Source: Escherichia coli (lineage in GTDB: Bacteria > Pseudomonadota > Gammaproteobacteria > Enterobacterales > Enterobacteriaceae). Taken from it: 64,000 bases of DNA. The DNA lies in assembly GCF_011045215.1 (NCBI RefSeq), contig NZ_CP049201.1. One strand, 5' to 3'. The position numbers are program-made. Below are positions 3,001 through 6,000 of this stretch, one piece after another (positions within the stretch are counted from its first letter, which is position 1; each line of letters starts with the position of its first letter).

Positions 3001-6000
3001 AAGTTTAACTTAAGGCTGGCGGGATACTTTTTACTATCAACGATAAGGTCAGGCTGAATTGGCGGGTTTTAACATCAAACATTGGTTTGCAGATGGCGCG
3101 TTTCGCACCATTATTCGCAATAGCGCCTGGTTAGGCTCCAGTAATGTCGTGAGCGCCTTGCTGGGGCTGTTGGCGCTCTCGTGTGCCGGTAAAGGGATGA
3201 CGCCCGCCATGTTTGGTGTACTGGTGATTGTGCAATCGTACGCCAAGTCGATCAGCGATTTTATTAAGTTTCAGACATGGCAGCTGGTGGTTCAGTACGG
3301 AACGCCAGCCTTGACCAACAATAATCCGCAGCAATTTCGCAATGTCGTCTCATTTTCCTTCTCGCTGGATATCGTCAGCGGCGCGGTGGCGATTGTCGGC
3401 GGCATTGCCTTACTGCCATTCCTTTCCCATTCATTAGGTCTGGATGACCAAAGCTTTTGGCTGGCGGCGCTGTATTGCACGCTCATTCCTTCAATGGCTT
3501 CCTCCACGCCGACCGGCATTCTGCGTGCGGTAGATCGCTTTGATTTGATTGCTGTACAGCAGGCGACGAAACCTTTTCTGCGCGCAGCGGGGAGCGTCGC
3601 AGCCTGGTATTTTGACTTTGGTTTTGCGGGTTTTGTTATTGCCTGGTACGCATCGAATCTGGTTGGCGGCACCATGTACTGGTGGTTTGCCGCGCGCGAA
3701 TTACGCCGCAGAAATATCCATAACGCCTTCAAATTGAATCTGTTTGAGTCTGCTCGACACATTAAAGGCGCGTGGAGTTTTGTCTGGTCAACCAACATTG
3801 CCCACTCCATCTGGTCGGCGCGTAACTCGTGCAGCACAGTGTTGGTGGGGATCGTGTTAGGACCCGCTGCCGCCGGGTTATTTAAAATCGCCATGACATT
3901 CTTCGACGCCGCCGGAACGCCAGCGGGTTTGCTGGGTAAAAGTTTTTACCCAGAGGTGATGCGTTTAGATCCGCGCACCACCAGACCGTGGTTGTTAGGC
4001 GTGAAGTCCGGTTTACTGGCGGGCGGAATCGGTATTCTGGTGGCGCTCGCGGTGTTGATCGTCGGCAAGCCGCTCATTTCGCTGGTGTTTGGCGTTAAGT
4101 ATCTCGAAGCGTATGACCTGATTCAGGTGATGCTGGGCGCAATTGTGATCTCGATGCTGGGCTTCCCTCAGGAGTCATTGCTATTGATGGCGGGAAAACA
4201 GCGCGCTTTTCTCGTGGCGCAAACCATCGCCTCAATCGGCTACATCGTATTGCTGTTCATGTTCTGTCATCTGTTTGGCGTGCTGGGAGCAGCGTTTGCT
4301 TATTTCGGCGGTCAATGTCTGGATGTGGTGCTTTCGCTAATTCCGACCTTAAAGGCATTTTTTCAGCGCCATTCCTTGCTTTATAACGCAGCCGGAGAGA
4401 AATCCTGATGATGAGAAAATATTTCCCGCTTGAGGCGAGCGAGCGTCTATTTGTTGCGATTGAAGAAGATGATGTCGTTGATGCACAGGTTAGTTTGCCG
4501 CCGACTATTGCACTAAGTTGTACCACCGAAATCATTCATGATAATTACGCGTTATGCCTGCAATTCTGGCTCAATGGCGTTAATCGTCAGGAATTACTGC
4601 GTTTAGTTCGCAAACAAGCCAAAGGCGATGAGCTGACTGCTGATGAGCGCAAACAATTTAAATACATGCGAGCGCGCTACAAGCACCTGCGTTTTGCGCA
4701 ACGGCTGTATTTAAAGAAGCATCAGGCCGGATTTTTATTCGGCAAAACGACCGTTTTTCTGGGACGTTTTCAGGACGGGTTTCGTAACGGTAAGAAAAAT
4801 ATTGTGTCGTATTACGGCAACCTGTTACGGATTTATTTAAGCTCTCCGGTCTGGTCGTTGGTGAACTATTCATTACGCCATAGCCAGTTAGAAAGCGTAA
4901 GCGGTTTTATTGCCTATCGGCAAAAGCAAATGCATGCCCTGAAAGAGATAATTGCCAAACCGCGACTAACCGGCAGGGAATTTCATGATGTGCGAAAAAT
5001 CATCAGCCAGCAGGTTTCTTATTACGACACCTTAAGATCGCTTGATCCTGAAAATAAAGAGGCGTTACAGATTTCCCGTTTCCTCGCCGCCATTAATGGC
5101 CTGATGGGGGATAAACACGACGACATGGTGGCGGATGATATGGAAAACCGCCAGTCGTATGATGCACCGGTGGCGCTGGATAGCGATATTCGCCAGCGCT
5201 TAGAGCTGCTGATTTCGCGTTTTCCGCTATAACCGGAGCAATGATGTCATCTCGTTTGATTATTGCGCTGATTATCATGCTCTTAGCCCCGGGAGTGCAG
5301 GCACACAATTTCGTCACTGGCAAAACGGTTACCCCTGTTTATATTCAGGAAGGCGGCGAGCTGCTTCTGAATAGCGACGACGAAATTCACTACCAAAAGT
5401 GGAACAGCACACAATTGGCGGGAAAAGTCCGCATTATCCAGTATATCGCCGGGCGTAAGTCAGCGAAGAAGAAGAACTCACTATTAATTAAAGCGGTTGA
5501 AGCGGCAAACTTTCCACAGGATCGTTTTCAGCCCACCACCATTGTGAACACCGATGATGCCATCTTTGGTACTGGCTATTTTGTTGTTGGCAAAATCGAA
5601 AAAAATAAACGCCGCTATCCGTGGGCGCAATTCGTTATCGACGGCAATGGACAGGGACGCGTTGCCTGGCGCTTGCCGGAGCAGAGTTCAACCATTCTGG
5701 TGCTGAATAAAGCCGGGCAAATTCAGTGGGCAAAGGACGGCAGCCTGACGCCGGAAGAGGTAGATCATGTCATTGCGCTGGCGCAGAAACTGATCAATGA
5801 ATAAAAAATTCAAAGGATTGAGGGCGTTAGTGAGATGAAGCTGGTTGAACACTACATCATGCGTGGTACGCGCCGTCTGGTGCTGATTATCGTCGGTTTT
5901 CTGATCTTTATTTTCGCCAGCTACTCCGCACAGCGTTATCTGACCGAAGCGGCAAATGGGACATTAGCACTTGATGTTGTGCTGGATATCGTTTTCTACA

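What the first reader, a model, noticed from the sequence alone, without database searches (positions are those of the whole stretch)
4408..5804. Two uncharacterised proteins inside the flippase/permease operon
A 274 aa cytoplasmic protein with no motif I recognise and a 187 aa signal-peptide protein (YtfJ-like) sit between the flippase-like gene and the permease pair, translationally coupled to their neighbours. Their fixed position suggests they are pathway components, perhaps a periplasmic carrier and a cytoplasmic modifier.
Basis: inference. Interest (0 to 1): 0.4.

Follow-up and report, generated by a model that had tools for sequence, protein, structure and literature searches.

The report
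Hidden CHAD protein and YtfJ paralogue
The two "unknown" genes are real, conserved parts of the E. coli sphingolipid gene island: one is a disguised polyphosphate-binding-type (CHAD) protein always attached to a lipid-flippase gene and kinase genes, the other a cysteine-free, exported copy of YtfJ, which hints that E. coli decorates its ceramide with a phosphate-rich head group.

Summary
Both ORFs exist exactly as described: 4408-5232 (274 aa) and 5241-5804 (187 aa). Both are under purifying selection (dN/dS 0.06-0.15). The window is the E. coli pitB-yghTSRQ…yghO-glcC region, the published E. coli sphingolipid (ceramide) locus. K-12 lost both genes to an IS5-associated deletion.

The 187-aa protein is a Sec-exported paralogue of YtfJ (54% identical). 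It has a TlpA/peroxiredoxin-like thioredoxin fold but no cysteine. It occurs only in Enterobacterales, always just downstream of the CHAD-like gene.

Best reading (inferred): the CHAD-like protein is a cytoplasmic binder of a phosphate-rich head group, working with the kinases and the flippase. The YtfJ paralogue is a periplasmic, non-redox accessory. Interest is moderate.

The parts
644..1336 (-). yghT, a dTMP-kinase-superfamily P-loop paralogue (1 of 3)
   Evidence: ORF. RefSeq names it yghT. Weak Pfam Thymidylate_kin hit. A family profile hits thymidylate kinases in the PDB at E 2.5e-7. It co-occurs with ORF1 in 48 of 54 loci.
1510..2223 (+). yghS, a dTMP-kinase-superfamily P-loop paralogue; probable first gene of the + strand operon
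   Evidence: A promoter-like site lies at 1432-1460 (consensus match only).
2255..3013 (+). yghR, a dTMP-kinase-superfamily P-loop paralogue
   Evidence: Pfam Thymidylate_kin 26.8 bits against a cut-off of 27. TIGR00041 E 9e-8, below threshold.
3059..4408 (+). yghQ, a MOP/Wzx-type (Polysacc_synt) flippase-like membrane protein
   Evidence: Pfam PF01943 E 8.8e-11. Several hydrophobic segments. Its stop overlaps the ORF1 start. Truncated by IS5 in K-12.
4408..5232 (+). ORF1: a divergent stand-alone CHAD-fold protein (274 aa, cytoplasmic, pI 9.4)
5241..5804 (+). ORF2: a Sec-exported YtfJ paralogue ('YtfJ2'); cysteine-free TlpA/peroxiredoxin-like thioredoxin fold; alternative start at 5244
5599..5605 (+). 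A7 homopolymer inside ORF2; an A6 allele causes a frameshift
   Evidence: Sequence. Frameshifted products P0216/P0217/P0229. The A6 allele occurs in 2 of 5426 complete E. coli genomes.
5835..6905 (+). lptF2, an LptF paralogue
   Evidence: PF03739 E 7.9e-54; TIGR04407 318 bits. Homologues are needed for sphingolipid transport in Caulobacter (bioRxiv 10.64898/2026.04.12.717747).
6902..7981 (+). lptG2, an LptG paralogue
   Evidence: PF03739 E 3.2e-69; TIGR04408 305 bits. RefSeq start taken.
7979..8013 (.). GC-rich hairpin with a 16-bp stem between the convergent operons; probable bidirectional terminator
8016..12109 (-). spt, acpR, epi/cerR and aasR: the ceramide-precursor synthesis operon
   Evidence: The E. 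coli BL21 orthologues ECD_02851-02854 were characterised or assigned in PMC9386255.
12472..13614 (+). yghO, the acyl-CoA N-acyltransferase assigned as ceramide synthase (aca/cerS)
   Evidence: PMC9386255 lists yghO ECD_02850 as aca.

Best explanation
The two ORFs are conserved components of the Escherichia/Enterobacterales sphingolipid locus.

ORF1 is a soluble, basic, cytoplasmic protein with the two-four-helix-bundle CHAD fold. It keeps the CHAD-type basic motifs: K85-x2-R88-x3-K92-x2-R95 and H193-x2-R196-K197, followed by G-x2-Q-D and G-x2-H-D. It is made by translational coupling with the MOP-type flippase YghQ and is co-inherited with the dTMP-kinase-like P-loop paralogues YghR/S/T.

Most likely (inferred), ORF1 binds a phosphate-rich or phosphoanhydride moiety at the cytoplasmic face. 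That moiety would be the anionic head group that YghR/S/T build on ceramide, or polyphosphate used by those kinases. ORF1 would then act as an adaptor between head-group phosphorylation and flipping by YghQ.

ORF2 is exported by a Sec signal peptide. It is a thioredoxin-fold paralogue of YtfJ in which the redox cysteines are replaced by an invariant Arg/Ser/Lys loop. Most likely (inferred) it is a non-redox periplasmic protein that binds or processes the flipped anionic lipid before LptF2G2 and LptB extract it.

Shown here: gene reality, folds, family relations, synteny and selection. Taken from the literature: the ceramide-synthesis genes and the LptF2G2 role in Caulobacter. Inferred only: the ligands, the order of steps and the physical contacts.
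For: Locus identity:
- RefSeq annotation and the published E. coli BL21/UTI89 sphingolipid genes.

ORF1 as a CHAD-fold protein:
- AF2 pLDDT 97.1.
- Profile against the PDB: best hit is the 6qv5 CHAD domain, E 0.0017, collinear in both repeats.
- Distant family members pass the Pfam CHAD gathering score (P0300, 40.9 bits).
- The experimentally defined polyP-binding core of CHAD is H-x2-R-x3-R (PMC6537752). The equivalent positions are invariant or nearly so in 92 family members, and the family's median pI is 9.26.

Coupling of ORF1 to the flippase and kinases:
- yghQ lies directly upstream in 48 of 54 loci, usually with a 1-, 4- or 8-nt overlap. This includes Rhodanobacter, Dyella, Luteibacter, Sphingopyxis, Novosphingobium and Sphingomonas.
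- In Xanthomonadales the order yghS-yghR-aasR-epi-acpR-spt-yghQ-ORF1 is all co-directional.
- On a metagenome contig at about 33% identity the order is 2x dTMPK-like, His_Phos_1, YghQ-like, CHAD-like, MatE.
- Another contig has the CHAD-like gene flanked by YghRST-like kinases.
- Relatives are fused to APH-type kinases or a cytidylyltransferase.
- Precedent: archaeal PPK3 consists of two dTMPK paralogues in an operon with a CHAD protein (PMC12995831).

ORF2:
- Family and fold.
- Signal peptide, no Cys, mature pI 9.3.
- Invariant basic loop at the CxxC position.
- Found in 41 of 54 loci, always just after ORF1, and in the same taxa that carry lptF2G2 in the locus.

Purifying selection acts on both genes.
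Against: - No ligand, interaction or phenotype has been measured for either protein, and no paper on them was found.
- ORF1 itself does not reach any Pfam or NCBIfam threshold. Foldseek gave no significant PDB hit; 6qv5 scored E 0.19, TM 0.44.
- The first-repeat histidine of canonical CHAD is a lysine here.
- The surface electrostatics of the model could not be computed because no coordinates were available.
- YghR/S/T are not closer to the PPK3 homologue (5h70/2plr, E 0.015) than to ordinary thymidylate kinases (E 2.5e-7). Their substrate is unknown.
- Sphingolipid production by E. coli and the nature of any head group are not established in the papers read.
- In Sphingomonadales and on L064 the kinase-flippase-CHAD module is not next to spt within the fetched flanks, so it may serve another lipid or polymer.
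- The ORF2 model is only moderately confident (pLDDT 83; three of the five models below 50), and the key loop has low confidence.
- ORF2's co-occurrence with lptF2G2 is confounded by phylogeny, because all cases are Enterobacterales.
Confidence: 0.55

Rival explanations
1. ORF1 is mainly a protein-protein scaffold or regulatory subunit. It would organise or activate the YghR/S/T kinases (as the non-catalytic rPPK3 subunit does for PPK3) or gate the cytoplasmic mouth of YghQ, without binding a phosphate-rich ligand itself.
For: The start/stop overlap with yghQ is conserved, which favours stoichiometric co-production. ORF1 always travels with two or three kinase paralogues. An acidic N-terminal motif (LF-A-V-E-E-D-D-x-V-D, residues 14-24; D22 about 90% conserved) could contact a basic partner or the protein's own groove. 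CHAD domains have no known catalytic activity (PMC6537752).
Against: The residues conserved most strongly across 92 divergent members are the basic and histidine positions that form the polyP-binding core in canonical CHAD. A pure scaffold would not need them.
Confidence: 0.2
2. One reading: ORF2 is the periplasmic lipid carrier of the LptF2G2 transporter. It would stand in for the LptC2 protein found only in Caulobacter, and ORF1 would be an enzyme that modifies the lipid.
For: ORF2 is periplasmic and lies directly upstream of lptF2. It occurs in the same 40-41 loci that carry lptF2G2. The Caulobacter study reports that lptC2 is restricted to Caulobacter and that no periplasmic component is known elsewhere.
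Against: ORF2 has a thioredoxin/TlpA-like fold, not the beta-jellyroll of LptC, LptA or the LptF/G periplasmic domains. When lptF2G2 are relocated (L009, L010, L022, L023, L033, L038, L042, L054), ORF2 stays beside yghQ and ORF1. Its housekeeping paralogue YtfJ exists in K-12, which lacks lptF2G2. ORF1 has a binding-module fold with no catalytic precedent.
Confidence: 0.15
3. ORF2 is a periplasmic redox protein: a thiol-disulfide oxidoreductase or peroxiredoxin. It could be the missing electron donor for the ceramide reductase CerR, which is reported to be periplasmic.
Against: The mature protein contains no cysteine. No cysteine column is conserved among 39 homologues, and the CxxC position is occupied by G-R-x-S-A-K. 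K-12 YtfJ likewise lacks the motif in the aligned region.
Confidence: 0.03
4. ORF1 is an ordinary polyphosphate-granule CHAD protein ('phosin'), ORF2 is a redundant YtfJ copy, and both are merely passengers in the island with no role in the lipid pathway.
For: CHAD proteins generally bind polyP and localise to granules (PMC6537752). E. coli has PPK1 and polyP. Two Pluralibacter genomes carry an extra, solitary ORF1 copy away from the locus.
Against: Adjacency and overlap with yghQ, and linkage to yghRST, are conserved across Gamma- and Alphaproteobacteria at identities down to about 30%. No PPK1, PPK2, PPX or TTM genes lie nearby. Both genes are under purifying selection like their neighbours.
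Confidence: 0.07

Closest known systems
CHAD domain proteins (Pfam PF05235; structures 6QV5 RcCHAD, 3E0S CtCHAD, 6RN5 PptA; the ygiF C-terminal domain)
   Different: Below every Pfam and NCBIfam threshold, and only 10-18% identical to the solved CHADs. The first-repeat His is replaced by Lys. Has a conserved acidic N-terminal extension. Its gene is fused in register to a MOP flippase gene inside a sphingolipid locus, rather than sitting with PPK1/PPK2/PPX/TTM genes. Ligand unknown.
Archaeal/bacterial PPK3 operons (two dTMP-kinase paralogues plus CHAD, SixA and PPX; PMC12995831)
   Same: Several dTMPK-superfamily paralogues encoded next to a CHAD-type protein. A His_Phos_1 (SixA/PhoE-type) phosphatase is present in the distant relative L064.
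   Different: YghR/S/T are not detectably closer to the PPK3 homologue than to true thymidylate kinases. No PPX is present. There are three paralogues rather than two. A flippase and lipid-synthesis genes are included. PolyP kinase activity has not been tested.
Caulobacter crescentus sphingolipid locus (spt, acpR, aasR, cerR, bcerS, cpgABC, CC_1166 flippase, lptF2/G2/C2)
   Same: The same ceramide-synthesis genes, a Polysacc_synt-type flippase candidate and an LptF/LptG paralogue pair, so an anionic outer-membrane sphingolipid is the expected product.
   Different: None of the window's locus genes scanned here gave a DAG-kinase-type or cytidylyltransferase (Tam41-type) domain hit that would mark cpgB/cpgC-type head-group enzymes. 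The Caulobacter proteins themselves were not compared. No LptC-like gene is annotated in the locus. Instead there are yghR/S/T, the CHAD-like protein and YtfJ2. No Caulobacter locus appeared among the 54 related loci.
E. coli YtfJ / Haemophilus HI0045 family (PF09695, TIGR01626)
   Same: 54% identity to K-12 YtfJ, the same length, a signal peptide and nearly all the invariant residues. The function of the family is unknown.
   Different: A second, locus-specific copy found only where the sphingolipid island is present. K-12 retains ytfJ but has lost this copy.
TlpA/ResA/DsbE/CcmG thiol-disulfide oxidoreductases and peroxiredoxins
   Same: Thioredoxin-like fold with the same strand-loop-helix active-site geometry and a cis-Pro-type loop (L-P-E-x-S-S-T); periplasmic location.
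   Different: No CxxC and no peroxidatic Cys, indeed no cysteine at all. The active-site loop is replaced by an invariant Arg/Ser/Lys-rich segment. At most 16% identity.

Membership tests
CHAD domain (PF05235) | Two four-helix bundles with internal pseudo-twofold symmetry | tested here: met
CHAD domain (PF05235) | Sequence match to the Pfam CHAD model above its gathering score | tested here: not met
   No Pfam hit for the window protein even at E<=10. One of 22 close homologues matches at E 0.0033, below the cut-off. Distant members of the same HMMER family do pass (P0300 40.9 bits, P0353 36.8 bits). A family profile hits the 6qv5 sequence at E 0.0017.
CHAD domain (PF05235) | Conserved basic/His helix motif (H-x2-R-x3-R) that forms the polyP-binding centre | tested here: met
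   K85-x2-R88-x3-K92-x2-R95 and H193-x2-R196-K197 are 87-100% conserved in 92 sequences. The motif definition comes from mutagenesis in PMC6537752. This is a sequence-level test only; surface charge was not computed.
CHAD domain (PF05235) | Binds inorganic polyphosphate | not testable with these tools
   Needs purified protein (GCI, ITC or gel shift).
CHAD domain (PF05235) | Encoded with polyP-metabolising genes (PPK, PPX, TTM) | tested here: not met
   The neighbours are yghR/S/T (dTMPK-like), yghQ and lipid genes. No PPK1, PPK2, PPX or CYTH gene is present.
YtfJ_HI0045 (PF09695 / TIGR01626) | HMM score above the curated cut-offs | tested here: met
   PF09695 200.5 bits (cut-off 24); TIGR01626 212.1 bits (cut-off 151.1). 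54% identical to K-12 YtfJ.
YtfJ_HI0045 (PF09695 / TIGR01626) | N-terminal signal peptide, i.e. an exported protein | tested here: met
   Hydrophobic segment 1-22 and the VQA|HNF site; the mature N-terminus AHNF is invariant in homologues. No dedicated signal-peptide predictor was available.
Thiol-disulfide oxidoreductase / peroxiredoxin (TlpA, ResA, DsbE, AhpC-TSA) | Thioredoxin-like fold | tested here: met
Thiol-disulfide oxidoreductase / peroxiredoxin (TlpA, ResA, DsbE, AhpC-TSA) | Catalytic CxxC or peroxidatic cysteine | tested here: not met
   No cysteine in the protein and no conserved Cys column among 39 homologues.
Lpt periplasmic carriers (LptC/LptA, OstA-like) | Beta-jellyroll fold | tested here: not met
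   The ORF2 model is an alpha/beta thioredoxin fold. No LptC/OstA Pfam hit.
PPK3-type polyphosphate kinase operon | Paralogous dTMPK-superfamily kinases beside a CHAD gene | tested here: met
   The YghR/S/T profile hits thymidylate kinases at E 2.5e-7. They co-occur with the CHAD-like gene in 48 of 54 loci.
PPK3-type polyphosphate kinase operon | Kinases belong to the PPK3 clade rather than to other dTMPK-like clades | tested here: inconclusive
   The PPK3 homologue STK_15430 (2plr/5h70) scores only E 0.015, weaker than canonical dTMPKs. No phylogeny was made.
Bacterial sphingolipid locus (Rhodobacteria type) | spt, acpR, aasR, cerR/epi and N-acyltransferase clustered together, plus an LptF/G paralogue pair | tested here: met
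   Assignments for E. coli BL21 are in PMC9386255. The E. coli UTI89 operon is shown in bioRxiv 10.64898/2026.04.12.717747.

The most novel reading that the evidence does not exclude
E. coli and its relatives, some Xanthomonadales and some Sphingomonadales make a ceramide (or another lipid) that carries an oligo- or polyphosphate head group.

In this reading:
- The three dTMP-kinase-like proteins YghT/S/R add phosphates one after another, forming phosphoanhydride bonds as thymidylate kinases and PPK3 do.
- The cryptic CHAD protein recognises this lipid-linked phosphate chain and delivers it to the Wzx-like flippase YghQ.
- The cysteine-free thioredoxin-fold protein YtfJ2 receives or trims it in the periplasm, before LptF2G2 and LptB send it to the outer membrane.

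This would be the first CHAD domain that works on a lipid-anchored phosphate polymer rather than on free polyP. It would also give a function to the YtfJ family.
Probability: 0.15. Interest if true: 0.8.

Novelty: new variant of a known kind. Interest (0 to 1): 0.5.

Why it matters
Bacterial sphingolipid research has just identified LptF2G2 as the inner-membrane exporter. The authors state that the flippase, the periplasmic steps and the non-Caulobacter head groups are unknown.

This locus is present in about three quarters of complete E. coli genomes, including BL21 and UTI89, but is deleted in K-12. That may explain why it has been overlooked.

Recognising that one 'hypothetical' gene is a CHAD-fold, phosphate-polymer-type binder welded to the flippase gene and to three kinase paralogues gives a concrete, testable prediction about the E. 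coli head group: it should be phosphate-rich and anionic. It also predicts where flipping happens.

The work also shows three further points:
- CHAD-fold proteins extend well beyond what Pfam detects.
- They occur outside classical polyP metabolism.
- The tempting idea that YtfJ2 is a redox partner for periplasmic CerR fails, because the protein has no cysteine.

If the roles are merely accessory, the result is still a useful re-annotation of two widespread hypothetical proteins.

Tried and rejected
- Pfam and NCBIfam scans of ORF1 gave no hit. Scanning 22 homologues at E<=10 gave only one sub-threshold CHAD hit among noise.
- A profile of close homologues against PDB sequences gave nothing. 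Only the 92-sequence profile reached 6qv5.
- The search for related loci with the diverse alignment failed for lack of a conserved stretch. It was repeated with the close alignment.
- phmmer of ORF2 against the PDB gave only noise.
- phmmer of YghR, YghS and YghT against the PDB singly gave only noise or P-loop matches.
- The idea that YghR/S/T are PPK3 members is not supported by sequence. It is kept only as an analogy.
- The idea that CC_1167, next to the Caulobacter flippase, is the ORF1 counterpart is rejected. CC_1167 is described as a CDP-glycerol glycerophosphotransferase-like protein.
- ORF2 as a redox partner of CerR is rejected because it has no Cys.
- The frequency of the A7 wild-type allele could not be counted, because the low-complexity filter masked the query. 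Only the A6 allele count was obtained.
- The solitary second copies in Pluralibacter showed no informative neighbours.
- Several distant relatives lie on contigs too short to show context.
- Rfam found nothing in 1-15000.
- The literature held nothing on the function of either gene.
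Full report
**1. Observation**

The window begins in pitB and runs through yghT, yghS, yghR and yghQ, then two unnamed genes, lptF- and lptG-like genes, spt, an ACP gene, an epimerase-family gene, a fatty-acyl-AMP ligase gene, yghO and glcC. It is E. coli chromosome: the best match is 99.6% identical, and the 5-kb stretch 3000-8000 is at least 80% present in 4091 of 5426 complete E. coli genomes.

- ORF1 is 4408-5232 (274 aa).
- ORF2 is 5241-5804 (187 aa; RefSeq uses the ATG at 5244).

The gene junctions are as follows.
- The yghQ stop and the ORF1 start share one base (TGATG).
- ORF1 and ORF2 are 8 nt apart, with a GGAG between them.
- ORF2 and lptF2 are 30 nt apart.
- lptF2 and lptG2 overlap by 4 nt.

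No convincing terminator lies inside the operon. A hairpin with a 16-bp stem sits at 7979-8013 between the convergent lptG2 and spt genes.

Pairwise dN/dS was measured against divergent Escherichia, Pseudocitrobacter and Hafnia. It is 0.06-0.10 for ORF1 and 0.11-0.15 for ORF2, the same range as the flanking genes. Both are therefore real, selected protein-coding genes.

**2. Context from the literature**

The minus-strand genes and yghO are the E. coli counterparts of the Caulobacter ceramide genes aasR, cerR/epi, acpR, spt and the N-acyltransferase. The BL21 AcpR, AasR and Spt proteins were characterised biochemically (PMC9386255).

A 2026 preprint shows that the LptF/LptG paralogues of the Caulobacter sphingolipid locus are needed for sphingolipid export and use the housekeeping LptB. 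It draws the E. coli UTI89 operon for comparison. It also states that lptC2 is confined to Caulobacter and that the periplasmic and outer-membrane steps are unknown. Another paper from the same field states that no flippase has been identified.

I found no paper dealing with the two ORFs.

In K-12 MG1655 an IS5 element sits between a truncated yghQ and yghO, and everything from ORF1 to aasR is missing.

**3. ORF1 is a cryptic CHAD-fold protein**

ORF1 has no Pfam or NCBIfam hit.

The family and its sequence links to CHAD:
- The 5.8-billion-protein index held 344 homologues, all called 'hypothetical'. There were two exceptions: a UniRef label 'CHAD domain-containing protein', and a SEED-style label 'TPR repeat protein, clustered with yghQ'.
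- An exhaustive HMMER search of 1.84 billion cluster representatives found only 291 clusters.
- In a 92-sequence alignment the invariant or nearly invariant residues are K85, R88, K92, R95, H105, G119, D123, H193, R196, K197, N230, G234, H237, D238 and Y251. They form two similar half-motifs. The median pI is 9.26.
- Distant members pass the Pfam CHAD threshold.
- The family profile picks the CHAD domain 6QV5 as the best PDB sequence, E 0.0017, aligned collinearly in both halves.

The structural evidence:
- AlphaFold2 gives an all-helical model with pLDDT 97.1.
- Foldseek was inconclusive.

The experimentally defined polyP-binding core of CHAD is H-x2-R-x3-R (PMC6537752). ORF1 has K-x2-R-x3-K-x2-R in the first half and H-x2-R-K in the second.

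ORF1 has no hydrophobic segment.

I conclude that ORF1 is a highly divergent, stand-alone, cytoplasmic CHAD-fold protein. The fold and motif features are met. The Pfam threshold and the usual polyP-gene neighbourhood are not met.

**4. ORF1's partners**

A scan of one genome per species returned 54 loci.

- yghQ lies immediately upstream in 48 of them. Four more are cut at the locus edge or carry only a partial alignment. Only two extra copies in Pluralibacter are solitary.
- The yghQ stop and ORF1 start usually overlap by 1, 4 or 8 nt. This also holds in Rhodanobacter, Sphingopyxis, Novosphingobium and Sphingomonas.
- YghR/S/T-type kinases are present in 48 of the 54 loci.
- In Xanthomonadales the order is yghS-yghR-aasR-epi-acpR-spt-yghQ-ORF1, all co-directional. 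This ties the kinases, the flippase and ORF1 to sphingolipid synthesis without any lptF2G2 or ORF2 nearby.
- In Sphingomonadales the unit is kinases-yghQ-ORF1, and the operon ends there.
- A metagenome contig whose proteins are only about 30-39% identical has GT4, 2x dTMPK-like, His_Phos_1, YghQ-like, CHAD-like and MatE in that order.
- Another contig has the CHAD-like gene flanked by YghRST-like genes on both sides.
- Some relatives are fused to APH-type kinase domains or to a cytidylyltransferase domain.

YghR/S/T form a divergent branch of the thymidylate-kinase superfamily. The family profile matches thymidylate kinases at E 2.5e-7, and all three paralogues keep the P-loop, the DR(Y/F) motif and an R-K-P-D-H lid motif.

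The pairing of dTMPK paralogues with a CHAD protein is the genomic signature of the recently described PPK3 polyphosphate kinases (PMC12995831). However, YghR/S/T are not detectably closer to the PPK3 homologue than to ordinary dTMPKs. This is therefore an analogy, not a membership.

**5. ORF2**

ORF2 is a clear member of the YtfJ_HI0045 family and is 54% identical to K-12 YtfJ, which is encoded elsewhere on the chromosome. It is thus a locus-specific paralogue.

- It has a typical Sec signal peptide (VQA|HNF), contains no cysteine, and has a mature pI of 9.3.
- Where those enzymes carry CxxC or the peroxidatic Cys, ORF2 and its homologues have an invariant I-A-G-R-x-S-A-K-K-K-N loop. The L-P-E-x-S-S-T loop corresponds to the cis-proline loop.

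ORF2 is therefore redox-dead. This rejects the otherwise attractive idea that it supplies electrons to CerR, which is reported to be periplasmic.

ORF2 is found in 41 of 54 loci, all Enterobacterales (one contig is labelled Martelella), always within 700 nt downstream of ORF1. It stays there even when lptF2G2 are placed elsewhere in the locus. The same taxa are the ones that carry lptF2G2 in the locus.

A frameshift allele (A7 to A6 at 5599-5605) exists but is rare: 2 of 5426 complete genomes.

**6. Mechanism**

Shown here: the identity of the locus, the folds, family relations, synteny and selection.

Taken from the literature: the ceramide genes, and LptF2G2 with LptB as exporter in Caulobacter.

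Inferred, in order:
- (a) YghT/S/R phosphorylate the lipid. Thymidylate-kinase-type enzymes transfer phosphate onto a phosphate, so a di- or oligophosphate head group is plausible.
- (b) ORF1 uses its CHAD basic centre to bind this phosphate-rich group, or polyP as donor, at the inner face of the membrane, next to YghQ, with which it is co-translated.
- (c) YghQ flips the lipid. It belongs to a family whose known substrates are pyrophosphate-linked lipids (my own knowledge).
- (d) ORF2 binds or processes the anionic head group in the periplasm.
- (e) LptF2G2 and LptB extract the lipid.

I put 0.55 on the general statement: ORF1 is a phosphate/polyanion-binding accessory of the kinase-flippase module, ORF2 is a non-redox periplasmic accessory, and both are pathway components. 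I put about 0.15 on the specific oligophosphate-ceramide model.

**7. Comparison and novelty**

The locus and its core genes are known, but the two ORFs are unannotated in function. ORF1 is best described as a new, divergent variant of the CHAD kind in a new context: fused in register to a flippase gene within a lipid pathway. ORF2 is a new paralogous member of the uncharacterised YtfJ family.

The finding is not categorically new, and no experiment supports a role yet. It does turn two hypothetical proteins into specific, cheap-to-test hypotheses on an open question: the head group, the flipping step and the periplasmic handling of enterobacterial sphingolipids. Interest 0.5.

Noticed in passing
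window 644-3013 (yghT, yghS, yghR): Three paralogous dTMP-kinase-superfamily P-loop proteins share a P-loop, a DR(Y/F)PQ motif and an ARKPDH lid motif. RefSeq calls two of them 'dTMP kinase'. Their constant pairing with a CHAD-fold gene mirrors PPK3 polyphosphate-kinase operons, but their substrate is unknown.
   Followed up: partly
L060 (K-12 MG1655 3130146-3131340) versus window 4126-12400 approx.: In K-12 an IS5 (insH9) sits between a truncated yghQ (355 aa instead of 449) and yghO. ORF1, ORF2, lptF2G2, spt, acpR, epi and aasR are all missing, so the standard laboratory strain cannot be used to study these genes.
   Followed up: yes
window 5599-5605: An A7 run lies inside ORF2. An A6 frameshift allele (product ending ...KIEKINAAIRG...) is recorded on many short or long-read-like assemblies, but in only 2 of 5426 complete RefSeq E. 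coli genomes. The remaining records could be homopolymer sequencing errors or real variants; this was not resolved.
   Followed up: partly
protein P0032; window ORF1 and the yghD/gspM region at about window 39400-39900: A 280-aa E. coli protein annotated 'GspM' consists of the first ~224 residues of ORF1 joined to the C-terminus of a GspM-family protein. This implies a deletion of about 30 kb from ORF1 to the T2SS-beta gene yghD in some strains.
   Followed up: no
window 7979-8013: A 16-bp, GC-rich hairpin lies exactly between the stop codons of the convergent lptG2 and spt genes. It is probably a bidirectional terminator.
   Followed up: no
L040 10001-11800 and L045 9152-10816 (Luteibacter): The CHAD-like gene is tandemly duplicated downstream of yghQ in two Luteibacter genomes.
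   Followed up: no
L018 and L028 (Pluralibacter gergoviae and a Pluralibacter MAG), around 9900-10800: These are second, solitary copies of the CHAD-like gene (55-59% identical, with a ~30-aa N-terminal extension), away from any yghQ, kinase or spt gene and next to a ~530-aa membrane protein. They are the only exceptions to the synteny rule.
   Followed up: partly
L064 3467-9259 (metagenome contig, GC 45%): A distant version of the module (30-39% identity) adds a His_Phos_1 phosphatase between the kinases and the YghQ-like gene, plus a GT4 glycosyltransferase and a MatE transporter. No spt lies within 7 kb, so the module may not be restricted to sphingolipids.
   Followed up: partly
proteins P0353, P0357 (about 980 aa) and P0376 (2531 aa): Multidomain relatives exist: an APH/choline-kinase-like domain followed by two CHAD-type domains, and a giant protein with a cytidylyltransferase-like domain plus a CHAD-like domain.
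   Followed up: partly
L036 (contig labelled Martelella alba, an alphaproteobacterium): Gene order and identities (61-78% to E. coli) are those of Enterobacterales such as Serratia. The contig may be a contaminant or a recent transfer.
   Followed up: no
window 9468-10382 (epi/cerR): The E. coli CerR homologue starts directly with its Rossmann GxxGxxG motif and shows no signal peptide, although the Caulobacter enzyme is reported to be periplasmic (PMC11087976). How, or whether, the E. coli protein is exported is unclear.
   Followed up: no
window about 23500-40000: The rest of the window carries glcDEFGBA, sslE and the complete T2SS-beta (gspC-M, pppA, gspS2). This is another region partly lost in K-12 and was not examined further.
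   Followed up: no
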